DNA from: a virus
Lineage: Duplodnaviria; Heunggongvirae; Uroviricota; Caudoviricetes
Direction: 5' to 3' (one strand)
Virus record (IMG/VR): IMGVR_UViG_2541047595_000010
DNA: 7,207 bases
Below, in pieces: positions 125 to 7,207 of this stretch. The notes under the pieces are model-generated. The model did not search any database and was not told where the DNA came from. It saw nothing but the letters and a program-made list of their open reading frames with translations. Position 1 is the first letter of the stretch. Each line of letters starts with the position of its first letter. A program made the position numbers and the translations under genes.

Positions 125-235
125 TTATGCTCCGTCATGAATTTCCTCAGGTGTTGCGTCATCGTCCACTTCGAATACATCCTCAAAATCTCCACCAGCT
201 ATTCCCGTTTCAATAATAATTTTGAACTTTCGCAT
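125..235 (-). CDS. Hypothetical small acidic protein, 36 aa (MRKFKIIIETGIAGGDFEDVFEVDDDATPEEIHDGA)
   Basis: ATG at 235..233 and TAA at 127..125, below the ORF-track length cutoff. A GC hairpin (CCGCCC-TTTC-GGGCGG, 243-259) lies just upstream; the SD is weak. No homolog recognised. Confidence 0.25.
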   Translation of the reverse strand: MRKFKIIIETGIAGGDFEDVFEVDDDATPEEIHDGA

Positions 236-2279: not shown

Positions 2280-2781
2280 AATTCCATCCAGCTTTTTGTT
2301 GGTATTGCTGTCGATACGCAAGTTTGAAAGCAATTGCTTTTTCTATAAGTTCGTCAGTTTCACGATCCACTACGGCAGGATCAGCAAAAAGCAGTCCGGA
2401 CTCCACCACATCGCCATATTCTTTGTTTAACCCGGCGATCATGCACGTGATGCTTTTTCCGTCAGTAATTTCACGATACAACCTGAAATCATTAATCCGG
2501 ATAGCCTCCATAATTGCAGGCACTAGCGCCGTGAACTTTTCACGCTTATCCCTGGTGTCGATAGCCTTCCAGCGTTCAAATATCTTCACTCGATTAACGC
2601 CAAGCGCTCGCTGATCAATCGCGCCACCTTCATATGTGACACGCTGAACATCGATGTTCGGGCGCTCTTTCAAAGCCCAGAATGCTTCAGTGATTAATAT
2701 CGTCGCCTGCTCCTGTGTCATTCCTGGTCGACATATCCAGGCATCCAGAGCCTCACGAGCCTGTTCAGGAGTGATTTTCAT
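2260..2781 (-). CDS. Hypothetical early regulator at the cII position (173 aa); possibly YdaT-like
   Basis: ATG at 2781..2779, overlapping the dicC stop by 17 nt and the downstream initiator start by about 20 nt (operon coupling). Family assignment is a guess from synteny, not from recognised motifs. Confidence 0.55.
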   Translation of the reverse strand: MKITPEQAREALDAWICRPGMTQEQATILITEAFWALKERPNIDVQRVTYEGGAIDQRALGVNRVKIFERWKAIDTRDKREKFTALVPAIMEAIRINDFRLYREITDGKSITCMIAGLNKEYGDVVESGLLFADPAVVDRETDELIEKAIAFKLAYRQQYQQKAGWNYEPSFC

Positions 2782-2995
2782 TGTTCAACCGCCCCGCCCG
2801 CTTCGTCTTACGATATTCATCATAAACTTTGGGATCATACTGAAGCTCCCCGCCAGATGCCTCCTGTAGACGCATCGCGCGACCTTCGGGAACTAAATCC
2901 CCTTTCCAGCTATAAAGCGAAGCCAAACGAATACCTGCTGCTTGTGCAAGTTTTGTTTTTGAACCGAAATACAAAAGAGCGTCAGTTTTAAGCAT
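2765..2995 (-). CDS. dicC: Cro-like transcriptional regulator DicC (76 aa)
   Basis: ATG at 2995..2993 with SD AAGGTG; divergent from dicA; length and position match my recollection of K-12 Qin DicC. Confidence 0.85.
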   Translation of the reverse strand: MLKTDALLYFGSKTKLAQAAGIRLASLYSWKGDLVPEGRAMRLQEASGGELQYDPKVYDEYRKTKRAGRLNNENHS

Positions 2996-3010
2996 TTAAA
3001 ACACCTTTAT

Positions 3011-3028
3011 TGTTAGTCATAACTAACA
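3011..3028. promoter_or_regulatory. Operator-like imperfect palindrome TGTTAGTCATAACTAACA (16 of 18 symmetric positions)
   Basis: Seen in the dicC-dicA intergenic region; overlaps the -10 and start region of the candidate dicC promoter; shares the 10-mer TGTTAGTCAT with the site at 3557-3572. Confidence 0.5.
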
Positions 3029-3056
3029 AGATAGATGTTAACAAAAACATAGTCAA
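3028..3056 (-). promoter_or_regulatory. Candidate sigma70 promoter for the dicC operon: -35 TTGACT, 17-nt spacer, -10 TATCTT (minus-strand reading)
   Basis: Hexamers read from the sequence (plus-strand agtcaa at 3051-3056 and aagata at 3028-3033); positioned about 35-60 nt upstream of the dicC start. Confidence 0.45.
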
Positions 3057-3062
3057 TACGAT

Positions 3063-3076
3063 TTAGCATTAGCTAA
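3063..3076. promoter_or_regulatory. Operator-like palindrome TTAGCATTAGCTAA abutting the dicA start codon
   Basis: Half-sites TTAGC / GCTAA with a 4-nt spacer, ending 2 nt before the dicA ATG. The dicA promoter itself could not be placed confidently; dicA may be leaderless or nearly so. Confidence 0.4.
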
Positions 3077-3078
3077 CT

Positions 3079-3486
3079 ATGGAAACAAAAAATTTAACTA
3101 TCGGCGAACGCATCAGGTATCGTCGGAAAAACCTCAAACACACCCAAAGGTCTCTTGCTAAAGCCCTGAAAATCTCCCATGTGTCTGTATCACAATGGGA
3201 ACGGGGTGATAGTGAACCTACAGGGAAGAACCTTTTTGCCCTCAGCAAAGTATTGCAATGCTCACCAACATGGATTCTATTTGGCGATGAAGACAAGCAA
3301 CCAACACCACCTGTTGAGAAGCCAGTTGCCTTATCCCCCAAAGAACTAGAGCTCCTTGAGCTGTTTAATGCACTGCCAGAATCAGAACAGGATACCCAGC
3401 TCGCCGAAATGCGAGCTCGAGTAAAAAACTTCAATAAACTCTTTGAAGAATTACTAAAAGCCCGTCAGCGGACAAATAAAAGATAA
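3079..3486 (+). CDS. dicA: HTH (XRE/cI-type) repressor DicA (135 aa)
   Basis: N-terminal HTH (RSLAKALKISHVSVSQWERG); METKNLTIGERIRYRRKNLKHTQ... matches my recollection of DicA; exact length match; divergent arrangement with the cro-like dicC. Confidence 0.9.
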   Translation: METKNLTIGERIRYRRKNLKHTQRSLAKALKISHVSVSQWERGDSEPTGKNLFALSKVLQCSPTWILFGDEDKQPTPPVEKPVALSPKELELLELFNALPESEQDTQLAEMRARVKNFNKLFEELLKARQRTNKR

Positions 3487-3521
3487 CATCATCAATGAGT
3501 TATCTTTTACTACATCAATCA

Positions 3522-3539
3522 TGTTAGCTATAGCATACA
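3522..3539. promoter_or_regulatory. Weaker operator-like imperfect palindrome TGTTAGCTATAGCATACA (14 of 18 symmetric)
   Basis: Located just upstream of the -35 of the candidate dicB-operon promoter. Confidence 0.3.
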
Positions 3540-3546
3540 AAATCAC

Positions 3547-3575
3547 TTGACCGATATGTTAGTCATGGCTAATCT
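3547..3575 (+). promoter_or_regulatory. Candidate repressible promoter of the ydfABC-dicF-dicB operon: -35 TTGACC (3547-3552), 17-nt spacer, -10 TAATCT (3570-3575), with operator TGTTAGTCATGGCTAA (3557-3572) across the spacer and -10
   Basis: Near-consensus hexamers with ideal spacing, about 80 nt upstream of ydfA; the embedded operator shares TGTTAGTCAT with the intergenic operator, consistent with DicA repression of the dicB operon (established for K-12). Confidence 0.5.
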
Positions 3576-3652
3576 TGTTTGCATCAACACACCGCACGGT
3601 GTTCTCAGCAAACAGTTCCGCTACCCCAGCGTTAAGGGGAAATGAGGTCAGC

Positions 3653-3808
3653 ATGGATACTATCGATCTTGGCAACAACGAATCTCTGGTGTACGGCGTG
3701 TTTCCAAACCAGGACGGCACGTTCACCGCAATGACGTATACCAAAAGCAAAACGTTTAAAACCGAAAATGGTGCCCGTCGCTGGCTGGAAAGAAACTCAG
3801 GTGAGTGA
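3653..3808 (+). CDS. ydfA: Small prophage protein YdfA (51 aa)
   Basis: ATG at 3653 with SD GAGG 5 nt upstream; the ORF-track entry 3575..3808 is the same frame with a spurious 5' extension. Length and position match K-12 ydfA. Confidence 0.8.
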   Translation: MDTIDLGNNESLVYGVFPNQDGTFTAMTYTKSKTFKTENGARRWLERNSGE

Positions 3809-3809
3809 T

Positions 3810-3938
3810 ATGGATTTCGACACAATCATGGAAAAGGCTTACGAAGAATACTTCGAAGGCCTTGCCGAAGGCGAAGAAGCTCTCAGCTTCAGTGAGTTTA
3901 AACAGGCGCTTTCCAGTTCGGCAAAATCTAACGGCTGA
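3810..3938 (+). CDS. ydfB: Small acidic prophage protein YdfB (42 aa; MDFDTIMEKAYEEYFEGLAEGEEALSFSEFKQALSSSAKSNG)
   Basis: ATG at 3810, one nt after the ydfA stop, SD GGTGAG; translated by hand; absent from the ORF track because it is short. Length and position match K-12 ydfB. Confidence 0.75.
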   Translation: MDFDTIMEKAYEEYFEGLAEGEEALSFSEFKQALSSSAKSNG

Positions 3939-3967
3939 TAAGCGAAACAGCACCGCGAGGAATCAGT

Positions 3968-4186
3968 ATGCAGAAACGAGAACCCGTCATCATCGCGCCA
4001 GACTATACCGATGATGAACTTTATGAGTGGATGCGCCAGAAAATTAATGCAGCGCAGGATCTGAAATGGGCTAATGAAGCCAGGGCTAAGCAGGCTGAAA
4101 ATCTGTCCGCTCTGGAGCAGGATATCACCAATCTGGAAAAAGCAGCGGCATTAAGCATTGCCAGAATGATTACATACCCGCGTTAG
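3968..4186 (+). CDS. ydfC: Small prophage protein YdfC (72 aa), C-terminal coiled-coil-like
   Basis: ORF-track entry with SD GAGGAA; length and position match K-12 ydfC. Confidence 0.8.
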   Translation: MQKREPVIIAPDYTDDELYEWMRQKINAAQDLKWANEARAKQAENLSALEQDITNLEKAAALSIARMITYPR

Positions 4187-4526
4187 TAGCTAATCAACAA
4201 AGCTAAGGTTAGTAATTAAGGAGTTCTCCACGGGTGAGGTGGAGTGCGTGCGCCGGACACGGGTGCGCATCCGGAACTGACAGTTTACTGAAAGGATATT
4301 TCCCTGAAAAGTCAGACCATAACGCGAAAGCGCACGGCGAGGTAGCTGGTTCATAGATAGCCTGTCGTTAAATTTTCGTCGACCGTGCGCTTCCGGTTGT
4401 GGCAACCCGCGAAATGGCGCGGCGGTAAGTATGGCGGGGTTATTCCTTCCCCGTTGAGGACACCGGGTTGTCAGGTTGACCATACGCTTAAGTGACAACC
4501 CCGCTGCAACGCCCTCTGTTATCAAT

Positions 4527-4585
4527 TTTCTGGTGACGTTTGGCGGTATCAGTTTTACTCCGTGACTGCTCTGCCGCCCTTTTTA
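4527..4585 (+). ncRNA. dicF: DicF small RNA (about 53 nt plus U tail), processed from the dicB-operon transcript
   Basis: TTTCTGGTGACGTTTGGCGGTATCAGTTTTACTCCGTGACTGCTCTGCCGCCC followed by TTTTT matches my recollection of DicF; it sits between ydfC and dicB as in K-12. Confidence 0.7.
4543..4585 (+). terminator. Intrinsic terminator-like element at the DicF 3' end (GC stem GGCGG...CCGCC followed by TTTTT)
   Basis: GGCGG at 4543-4547 can pair with CCGCC at 4574-4578; T5 at 4580-4584. The loop is large, so termination is probably partial, consistent with dicB being expressed downstream. Confidence 0.45.
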
Positions 4586-4753
4586 AAGTGAATTTTGTGA
4601 TGTGGTGAATGCGGCTGAGCGCACGCGGAACAGTTAAAACCAAAAACAGTGTTATGGGTGGATTCTCTGTATCCGGCGTTAATTGTTAACTGGTTAACGT
4701 CACCTGGAGGCACCAGGCACTGCATCACAAAATTCATTGTTGAGGACGCGATA

Positions 4754-4942
4754 ATGAAAACGTTATTACCAAACGTTAATACGTCTGAAGGTTGTTTTGA
4801 AATTGGTGTCACTATCAGTAACCCAGTATTTACTGAAGATGCCATTAACAAGAGAAAACAAGAACGGGAGCTATTAAATAAAATATGCATTGTTTCAATG
4901 CTGGCTCGTTTACGTCTGATGCCAAAAGGATGTGCACAATGA
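4754..4942 (+). CDS. dicB: Cell-division inhibitor DicB (62 aa)
   Basis: ATG at 4754 with SD GAGGA 7 nt upstream; MKTLLPNVNTSEGCFEIGV... matches my recollection of DicB; the ORF-track entry 4649..4942 is the same frame with a spurious extension. Confidence 0.85.
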   Translation: MKTLLPNVNTSEGCFEIGVTISNPVFTEDAINKRKQERELLNKICIVSMLARLRLMPKGCAQ

Positions 4943-5130
4943 ATTCAGCATTTGTGCTTGTTCTGACAGTTTTTCTTGTTTCCGGAGAGCCAGTTGATAT
5001 TGCAGTCAGTGTTCACAGGACAATGCAGGAGTGTATGACTGCAGCAACCGAACAGAAAATTCCCGGTAACTGTTACCCGGTCGATAAAGTTATTCACCAG
5101 GATAATATCGAAATCCCGGCAGGTCTTTAA
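4939..5130 (+). CDS. ydfD: Small membrane protein YdfD (63 aa), hydrophobic N-terminus MNSAFVLVLTVFLVSG
   Basis: ATG at 4939 overlaps the dicB stop as ATGA (translational coupling); length and position match K-12 ydfD. Confidence 0.8.
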   Translation: MNSAFVLVLTVFLVSGEPVDIAVSVHRTMQECMTAATEQKIPGNCYPVDKVIHQDNIEIPAGL

Positions 5131-5222
5131 AACAGTTCCGTAATAAATATCCGGTTTCATTCTTATATGCCAGCAATGGCAGGGATTTGTTCATCCTTAA
5201 ATCTGTCATGAGGTTAAAACAA

Positions 5223-7207
5223 ATGAGTAAAGTCTTTATTTGCGCCGCTATTCCTGACGAACTGGCAACAAGGGAAGAAGGCGCTGTGGCTGTAGCCACA
5301 GCCATTGAAGCTGGCGACGAACGCCGTGCTCGAGCAAAATTTCACTGGCAATTCCTGGAACATTATCCGGCTGCTCAGGACTGCGCTTATAAATTTATTG
5401 TCTGCGAGGATAAACCTGGCATACCCCGCCCTGCCCTCGATTCATGGGATGCTGAATATATGCAGGAAAACCGCTGGGATGAGGAGTCTGCTTCTTTTGT
5501 CCCGGTTGAGACTGAATCCGATCCGATGAACGTCACTTTTGACAAGCTGGCCCCTGAAGTACAGAACGCTGTCATGGTTAAGTTCGACACATGTGAAAAC
5601 ATCACCGTTGATATGGTTATTAGCGCACAGGAATTGTTGCAGGAAGACATGGCAACATTCGACGGACATATCGTTGAAGCGTTGATGAAAATGCCAGAAG
5701 TTAACGCCATGTATCCGGAGCTTAAGTTGCACGCCATTGGGTGGGTTAAGCATAAATGTATTCCTGGTGCTAAATGGCCCGAAATTCAGGCAGAGATGCG
5801 CATCTGGAAAAAACGTCGCGAAGGTGAACGCAAGGAAACCGGAAAATACACGTCTGTTGTTGATCTCGCCCGCGCCAGAGCCAATCAACAGTACACTGAA
5901 AATTCAACAGGAAAAATCAGCCCGGTCATTGCTGCCATTCATCGCGAATACAAGCAGACATGGAAAACACTGGATGACGAACTGGCCTACGCTCTCTGGC
6001 CTAGTGATGTGGATGCCGGAAACATTGACGGCAGCATCCATCGCTGGGCAAAAAAAGAAGTTATCGACAACGACCGCGAAGACTGGAAGCGTATCTCGGC
6101 ATCAATGCGCAAACAGCCTGATGCCCTTCGCTACGACCGCCAAACTATTTTTGGCCTTGTCCGTGAGCGTCCGATCGACATTCACAAAGATCCCGTAGCA
6201 CTGAACAAATATATCTGCGAATACCTGACGACAAAGGGCGTGTTTGAGAATGAAGAAACAGACCTGGGCACTGTTGATGTTCTCCAGTCATCAGAAACAC
6301 AAACTGATGCAGTGGAAACTGAGGTATCTGATATCCCAAAAAATGAAACCGCGCCGGAAGCTGAACCATCTGTAGAGCGTGAGGGGCCGTTCTATTTCCT
6401 CTTCGCAGATAAGGACGGAGAAAAATACGGTCGCGCAAACAAACTCTCTGGTCTGGATAAGGCACTGGCTGCTGGCGCCACTGAAATCACAAAAGAAGAA
6501 TATTTTGCCCGAAAAAATGGCACATACACGGGCTTACCGCAAAATGTAGATACCGCTGAAGATTCAGAACAACCAGAGCCGATAAAAGTTACCGCTGACG
6601 AAGTAAACAAAATTATGCAGGCAGCCAATATCAGCCAGCCTGACGCCGATAAGTTGCTTGCTGCATCACGTGGTGAATTTGTTGAAGGGATTAGTGACCC
6701 GAATGATCCGAAATGGGTTAAGGGGCTCCAGACCCGCGATTCTGTGAACCAGAACCAGCATGAATCGGAACGGAACTACCAAAAAGCGGAACAAAACAGT
6801 CCAAATGCGTTACAAAACGAGCCAGAAACGAAACAGCCTGAACCAGTAGCGCAACAGGAAGTGGAAAAAGTCTGCACCGCCTGCGGTCAGACCGGCGGCG
6901 GCAACTGCCCTGATTGTGGCGCGGTGATGGGCGACGCAACATACCAAGAAACATTCGATGAAGAGTATCAGGTTGAAGTTCAGGAAGATGATCCGGAGGA
7001 AATGGAAGGCGCTGAACATCCACACAAGGAGAACACTGGCGGCAATCAGCATCACAATAGCGATAATGAAACTGGCGAGACGGCAGATCACCCAATTAAG
7101 GTGAACGGTCATCACGAAATCACATCCACCAGCAGGACGTGTGACCATCTAATGATCGACCTTGAAACCATGGGAAAAAATCCTGATGCCCCGATCATCT
7201 CAATAGG
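5223..7207 (+). CDS. Large ydfE-like early protein, 3'-partial (at least 661 codons, runs off window end): Cys4 zinc ribbon, acidic low-complexity linkers, start of a DnaQ-like 3'-5' exonuclease domain
   Basis: ATG at 5223 with SD GAGG 9 nt upstream; hand translation of 661 codons shows no stop. Not in the ORF track because no stop lies in the window. C-x2-C-x9-C-x2-C at 6873-6917; MIDLETMGKNPDAPIISIG at 7152-7207 resembles the DEDD Exo I motif. Occupies the recE position of Rac-type prophages. Confidence 0.85.
   Translation, partial: MSKVFICAAIPDELATREEGAVAVATAIEAGDERRARAKFHWQFLEHYPAAQDCAYKFIVCEDKPGIPRPALDSWDAEYMQENRWDEESASFVPVETESDPMNVTFDKLAPEVQNAVMVKFDTCENITVDMVISAQELLQEDMATFDGHIVEALMKMPEVNAMYPELKLHAIGWVKHKCIPGAKWPEIQAEMRIWKKRREGERKETGKYTSVVDLARARANQQYTENSTGKISPVIAAIHREYKQTWKTLDDELAYALWPSDVDAGNIDGSIHRWAKKEVIDNDREDWKRISASMRKQPDALRYDRQTIFGLVRERPIDIHKDPVALNKYICEYLTTKGVFENEETDLGTVDVLQSSETQTDAVETEVSDIPKNETAPEAEPSVEREGPFYFLFADKDGEKYGRANKLSGLDKALAAGATEITKEEYFARKNGTYTGLPQNVDTAEDSEQPEPIKVTADEVNKIMQAANISQPDADKLLAASRGEFVEGISDPNDPKWVKGLQTRDSVNQNQHESERNYQKAEQNSPNALQNEPETKQPEPVAQQEVEKVCTACGQTGGGNCPDCGAVMGDATYQETFDEEYQVEVQEDDPEEMEGAEHPHKENTGGNQHHNSDNETGETADHPIKVNGHHEITSTSRTCDHLMIDLETMGKNPDAPIISI

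What the first reader, a model, noticed from the sequence alone, without database searches (positions are those of the whole stretch)
7152..7207. DnaQ-like (DEDD) Exo I motif at the C-terminal edge of the ydfE-like protein
The peptide LMIDLETMGKNPDAPIISIG closely parallels the DnaQ/RNase T Exo I block (for example IVLDTETTG ... IIEIGAV). That implies a 3'-5' exonuclease domain where Rac carries the 5'-3' PD-(D/E)xK nuclease of RecE. If true this is a nuclease swap in the early-left recombination slot. Only the first motif is inside the window.
Basis: inference. Interest (0 to 1): 0.6.

Follow-up and report, generated by a model that had tools for sequence, protein, structure and literature searches.

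The report
Prophage exonuclease with swapped nuclease domain
The window ends at the start of a real 3'-5' (DnaQ/DEDDh-type) exonuclease domain, which replaces the RecE nuclease and its RecT partner at the end of a large Qin-prophage protein; databases already annotate this domain, but nobody has tested what it does.

Summary
The peptide LMIDLETMGKNPDAPIISIG (window 7149-7207) is in frame with an ORF that starts at 5223 and runs off the window.

- **Full gene.** DNA identical or near-identical to the window occurs in thousands of E. coli genomes. There the ORF continues for 162 more codons, giving 823-825 aa.
- **Domain.** Those codons carry Exo II (WGNGANFD) and Exo III (H-x4-D). Pfam PF16473 (Rv2179c-like) matches end to end at E = 2e-67. 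An AlphaFold model matches T4 DexA best, then RNase T.
- **Mosaic gene.** It has three parts: an N-terminal module (YdfE_N), a hinge shared with Rac RecE (window 6647-7089), and a nuclease module from about 7090. All four combinations of N-terminus (YdfE_N or RecE_N) and nuclease (DEDD or PD-(D/E)XK) exist.
- **RecT.** In 73 DEDD loci RecT never follows; xis-int follow directly. In 9 PD-(D/E)XK loci RecT always follows. So this is not a RecET-type recombination pair.
- **Novelty.** RefSeq, Pfam and PHROGs already annotate the domain, and a 2025 paper reported DnaQ-like nucleases in lambdoid early-left operons.

Substrate and biological role are untested. The finding is solid, but interest is modest.

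The parts
5223..7207 (+). First 661 codons of the intact ydfE-type gene (823 aa in this allele). It is the last gene of the DicA-controlled early-left (dicBF) operon and runs off the window.
   Evidence: ORF and start codon. Full gene in L002 5018-7495, annotated 'exonuclease' WP_000048348.1. PHROG 2082 matches end to end.
5223..5989 (+). Part of the N-terminal module (Pfam YdfE_N) that survives as the K-12 MG1655 ydfE pseudogene. In K-12 the rest is cut off by IS2E.
   Evidence: K-12 Qin matches window 2502-5989 at 99.9%. The ydfE pseudogene and IS2E are annotated there.
6647..7089 (+). Hinge module shared by all RecE/YdfE-type proteins (part of Pfam YdfE_C). Both mosaic joints lie at its edges.
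   Evidence: blastn breakpoints: Rac recE 6647-7089 (78%); YdfE_N+PDDEXK chimeras stop at 7089 and 7086; the RecE_N+DEDD gene starts at 6669. Protein alignment to RecE.
6873..6917 (+). CxxC-x8-CxxC zinc-ribbon-like motif inside the hinge, conserved in Rac RecE.
   Evidence: Sequence and alignment to RecE. AlphaFold does not model it confidently.
7090..7207 (+). Start of the DEDDh exonuclease module. Similarity to PD-(D/E)XK-type genes ends at 7089.
7149..7207 (+). Exo I block LMIDLETMGKNPDAPIISIG. Catalytic Asp is at 7158-7160 and catalytic Glu at 7164-7166 (D646/E648 in 823-aa numbering; D648/E650 in the 825-aa L002 protein).
   Evidence: They align with D7/E9 of T4 DexA in the HMMER and MAFFT alignments.
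7126..7133 (-). Chi octamer (GCTGGTGG on the minus strand) at the start of the DEDD module, conserved in 88 of 89 DEDD loci. Its significance is unknown.
4528..4579 (+). DicF small RNA in the same operon. Listed as context only.
   Evidence: Rfam RF00039, 76.7 bits.

Best explanation
**What it is.** The window ends at the first motif of a DEDDh (DnaQ-fold) 3'-5' exonuclease domain of about 180 aa. The domain belongs to Pfam family PF16473 (Rv2179c-like), and T4 DexA is its closest solved relative. It forms the C-terminus of an ~823-aa protein of a Qin-type lambdoid prophage, the intact form of the K-12 pseudogene ydfE.

**How the gene is built.** It is a three-part mosaic:
- a variable N-terminal module (YdfE_N here; Exonuc_VIII in Rac);
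- a conserved acidic hinge with a zinc-ribbon-like motif, shared with RecE;
- an exchangeable right-hand module.

The right-hand module is either the PD-(D/E)XK 5'-3' nuclease followed by recT, or the DEDDh domain followed directly by xis-int. Exchange by recombination within the conserved hinge explains all four observed combinations.

**Inferred, not shown.**
- The domain removes nucleotides from 3' ends by two-metal-ion catalysis, using D646, E648, D746, H796 and D801.
- DNA is more likely than RNA as its substrate, because DexA is its closest characterised relative.
- It is made with the DicA-repressed early-left transcript, that is, on induction.
- Without a strand-annealing partner it does not work as a RecET/Red-type recombinase.
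For: **Domain**
- In-frame ORF and motif.
- Identical DNA elsewhere continues into Exo II and Exo III.
- Pfam PF16473 at E = 2.4e-67 over the full model.
- Catalytic residues conserved in 33 homologues.
- AlphaFold core pLDDT above 90; best Foldseek matches are DexA at E ~3e-12, then RNase T, a DnaQ domain, Orn/REXO2 and 3'hExo.
- phmmer against PDB finds DexA at E = 7e-8.

**Mosaic structure**
- RecE homology over aa 264-629.
- RecE C-terminus is PF12684.
- Proteins with 97%-identical N-termini carry the PD-(D/E)XK domain.
- RecE_N+DEDD proteins exist.
- DNA breakpoints lie at 6647/6669 and 7086/7089.

**Context**
- 73 DEDD loci in 6 different downstream contexts have no RecT; 9 PD-(D/E)XK loci in 3 contexts all have RecT (examples).
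- Escherichia phage PhiR42_1, a deposited complete phage genome, carries a C-terminal domain identical to the 191-aa query, inside a 2472-nt gene (823 codons), and has no annotated annealing protein or Gam.
- No sigma-70-like promoter was found on the + strand upstream of the gene.
Against: - No enzymatic or genetic data exist for this protein.
- The Pfam family is named after an exoribonuclease, so RNA may be the substrate.
- The window holds only Exo I. The rest is read from other genomes that are identical or nearly identical over the overlapping stretch, not from this molecule.
- The full-length model is poor (pLDDT 49), so nothing is known about how the N-terminus and hinge position the nuclease.
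- The loci in the RecT tally are not independent. They are mostly E. coli prophages and fall into only 9 downstream sequence clusters.
Confidence: 0.9

Rival explanations
1. The domain is an exoribonuclease, as the Pfam and RefSeq names say. It would trim or degrade RNA 3' ends, either host or phage transcripts, possibly including the processed dicBF operon RNA.
For: - The best Pfam family is named for the M. tuberculosis exoribonuclease Rv2179c.
- RefSeq names the protein '3'-5' exoribonuclease domain-containing protein'.
- RNase T, oligoribonuclease and REXO2 are good structural matches.
- The gene lies in an operon whose RNA carries DicF.
Against: - The closest relative by sequence and by fold with measured activity is T4 DexA, a DNA exonuclease (PMC12153337).
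- The domain sits on the scaffold of a DNA exonuclease, RecE.
- DEDDh enzymes often act on both DNA and RNA, so fold and family name do not decide the substrate.
Confidence: 0.3
2. It is a prophage-borne exclusion or defence nuclease like EcD ('HREX'). It would degrade the 5hmC-modified DNA of superinfecting T-even phages while sparing host DNA.
For: PMC12153337 reports that an E. coli DexA homologue, EcD, degrades T4 DNA and protects against T4. The domain here is in the same family as DexA.
Against: - EcD is a different protein. Its cloning primers encode MIDTET... and ...TIPETY*.
- The DexA residues proposed to read 5hmC are not conserved in the alignment: W152 aligns with Tyr and D169 with Ala. 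That part of the alignment is uncertain.
- The gene lies in the repressed early-left operon, and no promoter-like site was found on its strand in the 3400-5400 stretch scanned, so little expression is expected in a lysogen.
- PADLOC gives only a weak generic DEDDh match.
Confidence: 0.1
3. It is a recombination-initiating nuclease after all. It would trim 3' tails to give blunt ends on which host RecBCD can load, so the phage uses the host's Chi-dependent pathway in place of RecET.
For: - DEDD-type phages lack both an annealing protein and Gam.
- PhiR42_1 has 6 Chi sites against 1.5 expected.
- A conserved Chi lies inside the gene.
- Zheng et al. 2025 show that lambdoid phages without Rec modules rely on RecBCD and Chi.
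Against: - PhiR42_1 has only 4 Chi sites in the orientation I take to be active (top strand in the lambda gene-order convention), below the 8 or more typical of the Chi-rich class.
- The same paper notes that DnaQ-type 3'-5' nucleases usually inhibit homologous recombination, and does not count those next to int as Rec-module genes.
Confidence: 0.1
4. The resemblance is a chance match of a short acidic peptide, or the gene is a decaying pseudogene with no functional domain.
For: Only about 20 residues of the domain lie inside the window. The K-12 copy is a pseudogene.
Against: - The fragment inside the window alone gives E = 2.7e-5 against PF16473.
- The full-length ORF is intact in very many genomes; one 90%-identity cluster holds 23,183 member sequences.
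- Catalytic residues are invariant.
- The gene is present in a deposited complete phage genome.
Confidence: 0.01

Closest known systems
Bacteriophage T4 DexA (exonuclease A; PDB 8KEL/8KEN)
   Same: - DEDDh 3'-5' exonuclease fold.
- D, E, D, H and D align: DexA D7/E9/D119/H186/D191 with D648/E650/D748/H798/D803 in 825-aa numbering.
- It is the best match by sequence (E = 7e-8) and by structure (Foldseek E ~3e-12).
   Different: - Only about 21-28% identical.
- DexA is a free-standing 227-aa protein of a lytic phage and has extra loops.
- The domain here is fused to a ~640-aa RecE-like scaffold in a temperate phage.
- The proposed 5hmC-reading residues of DexA are not clearly conserved.
Rac prophage RecE (exonuclease VIII)
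   Same: [quoted passage not shown]
- Homologous central and hinge region: aa 264-629 against RecE 278-592, with a near-identical zinc-ribbon stretch.
- Natural chimeras join this protein's N-terminus to the RecE nuclease.
   Different: - RecE ends in a PD-(D/E)XK 5'-3' nuclease (PF12684) and is followed by recT.
- This protein ends in a DEDDh domain of predicted opposite (3'-5') polarity and has no recT.
- It scores 281.6 bits against the NCBIfam RecE equivalog, far below the 1269-bit cut-off.
- The N-terminal ~250 aa are unrelated: YdfE_N rather than Exonuc_VIII.
Pfam PF16473, Rv2179c-like 3'-5' exoribonuclease domain (M. tuberculosis Rv2179c)
   Same: Full-length match to the family model, 226.5 bits against a 27-bit cut-off.
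   Different: Rv2179c is a small free-standing bacterial protein described as an exoribonuclease. Substrate preference is untested for the phage fusion.
Free-standing 185-200-aa DEDDh exonucleases of enterobacterial temperate phages (for example PhiR55_1 and PhiR46_1)
   Same: 54-62% identical to the domain here, with the same motifs.
   Different: They are not fused to a RecE/YdfE scaffold, and they sit at other positions among early genes.
DnaQ-like nucleases of lambdoid early-left operons (Zheng, Casjens, Davidson, Amundsen and Smith 2025, PMC12315714)
   Same: The paper reports DnaQ-type 3'-5' nuclease genes in lambdoid phages. Some lie inside Rec modules; others are sporadic and sit next to int. 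The second description fits this gene's position.
   Different: The text I read does not describe fusion to a RecE-like scaffold, the hinge breakpoints, or the strict alternation with RecT.
EcD / HREX (E. coli DexA homologue, PMC12153337)
   Same: It is a member of the DexA family in E. coli with reported anti-T4 activity.
   Different: It is a different protein: its primers encode MIDTET.... It is free-standing, and no specificity for modified DNA can be inferred for the domain here.

Membership tests
DEDDh (DnaQ-like) 3'-5' exonuclease superfamily | Exo I motif D-x-E | tested here: met
   DLE at window 7158-7166. The Asp is invariant and the Glu at least 90% conserved in 33 homologues.
DEDDh (DnaQ-like) 3'-5' exonuclease superfamily | Exo II motif with a conserved Asp | tested here: met
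   WGNGANFD, with D748 in the 825-aa protein. It lies beyond the window and was read from L002, which is 99.9% identical to the window over the 7,002 nt they share. The Asp is invariant.
DEDDh (DnaQ-like) 3'-5' exonuclease superfamily | Exo III motif H-x4-D (the 'h' subtype) | tested here: met
   HNALDD, with H798 and D803. Both are invariant and align with DexA H186/D191.
DEDDh (DnaQ-like) 3'-5' exonuclease superfamily | RNase H-like alpha/beta fold | tested here: met
   AlphaFold model pLDDT 81. Foldseek probability is 1.00 to DexA, RNase T, a DnaQ domain, Orn, REXO2 and 3'hExo.
DEDDh (DnaQ-like) 3'-5' exonuclease superfamily | Mg-dependent 3'-5' exonuclease activity | not testable with these tools
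   This needs a nuclease assay.
Pfam PF16473 (Rv2179c-like) | Score above the family's gathering threshold | tested here: met
   226.5 bits against 27, covering profile positions 2-177 of 177. The fragment inside the window alone reaches 24.4 bits.
RecE / exodeoxyribonuclease VIII (NCBIfam NF007259 equivalog) | Score above the equivalog cut-off | tested here: not met
   281.6 bits against 1269. Only profile positions 271-600 match.
RecE / exodeoxyribonuclease VIII | C-terminal PD-(D/E)XK 5'-3' nuclease domain (PF12684) | tested here: not met
   There is no PF12684 hit. The C-terminus is PF16473 instead (compared).
RecE / exodeoxyribonuclease VIII | Adjacent recT gene, forming an exonuclease plus annealing-protein pair | tested here: not met
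   xis and int follow directly. None of 73 DEDD loci has RecT, while all 9 PD-(D/E)XK loci do.
RecE / exodeoxyribonuclease VIII | Central and hinge region with the zinc-ribbon-like motif | tested here: met
   BLASTP E = 2e-61 over aa 264-629. The DNA is 78% identical over window 6647-7089.
HREX / EcD-type 5hmC-specific defence exonuclease | Trp and Asp residues proposed to recognise 5hmC (DexA W152, D169) | tested here: inconclusive
   In the MAFFT alignment W152 aligns with Y768 and D169 with A782, but that loop region aligns poorly.
HREX / EcD-type 5hmC-specific defence exonuclease | Protection against T4 and selective cleavage of 5hmC DNA | not testable with these tools
   This needs plaque and nuclease assays.

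The most novel reading that the evidence does not exclude
The DEDDh module is a functional alternative to 'RecE nuclease + RecT', not a degenerate replacement. In this reading the RecE-type scaffold delivers a 3'-5' exonuclease to the same DNA ends. The result would be either to channel phage DNA into the host RecBCD/Chi pathway, or to destroy 3'-ended nucleic acids of host defences or of competing phages. The strict either/or pattern (DEDD, or PD-(D/E)XK with RecT) would then mark two different end-processing strategies exchanged as cassettes at a conserved hinge.
Probability: 0.15. Interest if true: 0.55.

Novelty: already known. Interest (0 to 1): 0.3.

Why it matters
[quoted passage not shown] Sequence related to its last 1 kb in the window occurs in 4737 of 5426 complete genomes, although that count includes RecE-type paralogues. 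It went unstudied because the K-12 copy lost the domain to an IS2 insertion.

The data here show that the RecE scaffold carries two nucleases, one of known 5'-3' polarity and one predicted to be 3'-5', and that the annealing protein RecT travels only with the first. This gives a clean natural experiment on what the long, uncharacterised RecE N-terminus and hinge do. It also warns that the label 'exodeoxyribonuclease VIII', which phage annotations give these genes, is wrong for the nuclease part.

The finding does not open a new class of system.

Tried and rejected
- **Literature.** Searches for ydfE with Qin and exonuclease found nothing, and ydfE alone found nothing on function. Rv2179c with phage gave nothing relevant. 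One search was wasted because 'RecE' matched 'receptor'.
- **Is EcD this protein?** No. The cloning primers in the supplement encode different termini.
- **Full-length AlphaFold model.** Mean pLDDT is 49. Only the DEDD domain and a small module at aa 388-432 are confident, so nothing can be said about the scaffold.
- **Chi enrichment as support for a RecBCD-feeding role.** PhiR42_1 has 6 sites against 1.5 expected, but only 4 on the strand I take to be active. That is below the class described in PMC12315714, so the support is weak.
- **PADLOC defence models.** Only a weak generic DEDDh hit.
- **Promoter scan.** No promoter-like site on the gene's strand upstream of it. This is a consensus scan and weak evidence.
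- **Supplement of PMC12315714.** It is not held, so I could not check whether its tables list this fusion.
- **Direct folding of the L002 protein.** Database proteins P0200 and P0001 were folded instead.
Full report
**1. The observation**

The last 59 bases of the window (7149-7207) translate to LMIDLETMGKNPDAPIISI plus a partial GG codon, which is Gly.

The peptide is in frame with a long ORF. The last upstream stop is at 5103-5105. The annotated start is the ATG at 5223, preceded by GAGG. The window therefore holds 661 codons of a gene that runs off its right edge.

The 20 residues inside the window already give a Pfam match to positions 1-21 of PF16473: E = 2.7e-5 and 24.4 bits, against a cut-off of 27. 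The resemblance is more than chance, but it could not be settled from the window alone.

**2. Where the window comes from**

The window is the immunity and early-left region of a Qin-type lambdoid prophage of E. coli. It contains:
- DicC (2765-2995, minus strand) and DicA (3079-3486);
- ydfA, ydfB and ydfC;
- DicF RNA (4528-4579; Rfam 76.7 bits);
- DicB (4754-4942) and YdfD (4939-5130);
- the large ORF.

Window 6200-7207 is 100% identical to many E. coli chromosomes. In total 4737 of 5426 complete genomes have a match of some kind, and 1574 records match at 99% identity or better.

In record NZ_CP026085.1 the gene is intact: 825 aa, 'exonuclease', WP_000048348.1. It is followed directly by excisionase and integrase, then the chromosomal rspB gene. 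The window matches that locus at 99.87%, with one 6-nt indel in an Ala-Arg repeat, so the window's allele encodes 823 aa.

In K-12 MG1655 the similarity stops at window 5989, where a fragment of IS2 has replaced the rest. This is why K-12 'ydfE' is a pseudogene without the domain.

**3. The domain is real**

The missing 162 codons encode ...GAIFFDPQTGDMGPEF...VWGNGANFDNTIL...ERHNALDDARYQAKYV...*. These contain Exo II (D748) and Exo III (H798-x4-D803), in 825-aa numbering.

- Pfam PF16473 (Rv2179c-like 3'-5' exoribonuclease domain) matches aa 644-815 over profile positions 2-177 of 177, at E = 2.4e-67. The general RNase_T model PF00929 matches weakly.
- In an alignment of 33 homologues, down to 55% identity, the Exo I Asp, Exo II Asp, Exo III His and Exo III Asp are invariant. 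The Exo I Glu is at least 90% conserved.
- An AlphaFold model of a 213-aa database fragment that is 98% identical to the C-terminal query has mean pLDDT 81, with the core mostly above 90.
- Its best matches among solved structures are T4 DexA (E about 3e-12), then RNase T, a DnaQ domain, oligoribonuclease/REXO2 and 3'hExo. All are DEDDh enzymes.
- By sequence, DexA is the only significant PDB hit (E = 7e-8).
- The domain is widespread in phages, with 1294 phage records matching. It also occurs as a free-standing 185-200-aa protein in other E. coli temperate phages.

**4. The swap is real, and the gene is a three-part mosaic**

Residues 264-629 align to Rac RecE 278-592 (E = 2e-61). The last ~170 residues are nearly identical and include a CxxC-x8-CxxC motif. 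RecE then continues into the PD-(D/E)XK domain PF12684.

The NCBIfam RecE equivalog matches only its positions 271-600, at 281.6 bits against a cut-off of 1269.

A search with the part of the protein encoded in the window found two kinds of relatives:
- 812-831-aa proteins with YdfE_N, YdfE_C and PF16473;
- 900-aa proteins that are 97% identical over 95% of the 661-aa query (about the first 630 residues) and then switch, right after EEMEGAEHPH, to the Rac RecE nuclease sequence.

The reverse chimera also exists: a RecE-type N-terminus (PF06630) with the DEDD domain. So do forms without any recognisable nuclease. All four combinations of N-terminus and nuclease therefore occur.

DNA comparison places the joints:

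| Compared with | Similar over window | Identity |
|---|---|---|
| Rac recE | 6647-7089 only | 78% |
| YdfE_N + PD-(D/E)XK genes | up to 7089 or 7086 | 97.7% and 94.2% |
| RecE_N + DEDD gene | from 6669 to the window end | 89.7% |

The hinge (6647-7089) is thus the shared segment at whose edges modules are exchanged. The DEDD module begins about 60 nt before the Exo I motif.

**5. Context: not a RecET-type pair**

In Rac and in both YdfE_N + PD-(D/E)XK loci examined, recT follows the nuclease gene. In the DEDD loci, xis and int follow directly. This holds at four or more different integration sites with different integrases, and on both N-terminal backgrounds.

I then fetched 94 further loci with the hinge as query, from IMG/VR and from GTDB species genomes. 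Together with 8 loci fetched earlier, these were scored by tblastn. Among loci with at least 1 kb after the nuclease domain:
- 73 DEDD loci, in 6 distinct downstream sequence clusters, have no RecT;
- 9 PD-(D/E)XK loci, in 3 clusters, all have RecT.

These loci are related to one another, so this is a consistent pattern and not a statistical test.

Escherichia phage PhiR42_1, a deposited complete phage genome whose listed host is ECOR13, carries a C-terminal domain identical to the 191-aa query, within a 2472-nt gene (823 codons). It has no annotated annealing protein or Gam. The right-hand module, meaning the nuclease domain with or without recT, moves as a unit.

**6. What it most likely does**

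*Shown:* a conserved, intact DEDDh domain with all catalytic residues, at the end of the DicA-controlled early-left operon.

*Inferred:*
- two-metal-ion hydrolysis from 3' ends;
- DNA as the more likely substrate, because DexA is the nearest characterised relative and the scaffold is that of a DNA exonuclease;
- expression with the early-left transcript, since no promoter-like site lies on its strand upstream (weak evidence);
- no Red/RecET-type function, for lack of an annealing partner.

Zheng et al. (PMC12315714) note that DnaQ-type 3'-5' nucleases usually inhibit homologous recombination. They do not count those next to int as Rec-module genes.

The alternative roles are ranked under rival explanations: an exoribonuclease, an EcD-like nuclease against 5hmC DNA, or trimming ends for RecBCD. 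None has direct support.
- EcD is a different protein.
- The DexA residues proposed to read 5hmC are not clearly conserved.
- PhiR42_1 has only a mild Chi excess: 6 sites against 1.5 expected, 4 of them on the strand I take to be active.
- PADLOC gives nothing specific.

**7. Comparison with what is known, and novelty**

The domain assignment is already public:
- RefSeq calls these proteins 'exonuclease', '3'-5' exonuclease' or '3'-5' exoribonuclease domain-containing protein'.
- Pfam has the families YdfE_N, YdfE_C and Rv2179c-like on them.
- PHROG 2082 is 'exonuclease'.
- A 2025 Genome Research paper reports DnaQ-like nucleases in lambdoid early-left operons, some of them next to int.

Some phage annotations still call the gene 'exodeoxyribonuclease VIII', which is wrong for the nuclease part.

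I did not find three things described in the papers I could read: the fusion to the RecE scaffold, the hinge breakpoints, and the strict alternation with RecT. These are modest additions, not a new kind of system.

Noticed in passing
window 7126-7133 (minus strand); also window 192-199 (minus strand): A Chi octamer (GCTGGTGG) lies 37 nt right of the mosaic breakpoint and 16 nt left of the Exo I block. It is conserved in 88 of 89 DEDD-type loci. In lambda map orientation it would be on the strand taken as 'active'. I have no explanation for it.
   Followed up: partly
window about 5860-5880: There is a 6-nt indel in an Ala-Arg repeat of the large ORF. The window reads ARARAN and L002 reads ARARARAN, giving 823-aa and 825-aa alleles.
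   Followed up: no
window 6873-6917: A CxxC-x8-CxxC zinc-ribbon-like motif lies in the hinge and is nearly identical in Rac RecE. AlphaFold does not model it confidently. Its role in RecE-type proteins is unknown.
   Followed up: no
window about 6384-6518 (aa 388-432): This small beta/alpha module is the only confidently modelled part of the protein outside the nuclease domain (pLDDT 73-81). It falls in the poorly conserved part of the RecE alignment.
   Followed up: no
window 4528-4579: DicF small RNA, a full-length Rfam match at 76.7 bits, in the same operon as the exonuclease gene.
   Followed up: yes
window 2502-5989 against K-12 MG1655 (L017): K-12 Qin matches only this stretch, at 99.9%. 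An IS2E fragment cuts the right side inside ydfE, and K-12 similarity also ends on the left at 2502. The window therefore represents a more intact Qin-type prophage than the K-12 one.
   Followed up: yes
proteins P0122, P0131, P0174, P0179 (not in the window): These RecE-N-terminus proteins of 646-775 aa contain the hinge but have no recognisable nuclease domain. They may be the 'RecE-2' class that PMC12315714 describes as lacking a nuclease.
   Followed up: no
L002 (NZ_CP026085.1): This record is labelled 'strain DH5alpha' yet carries an intact Qin-type exonuclease, xis and int. K-12 MG1655 lacks these. The strain label or the lineage may be worth checking.
   Followed up: no
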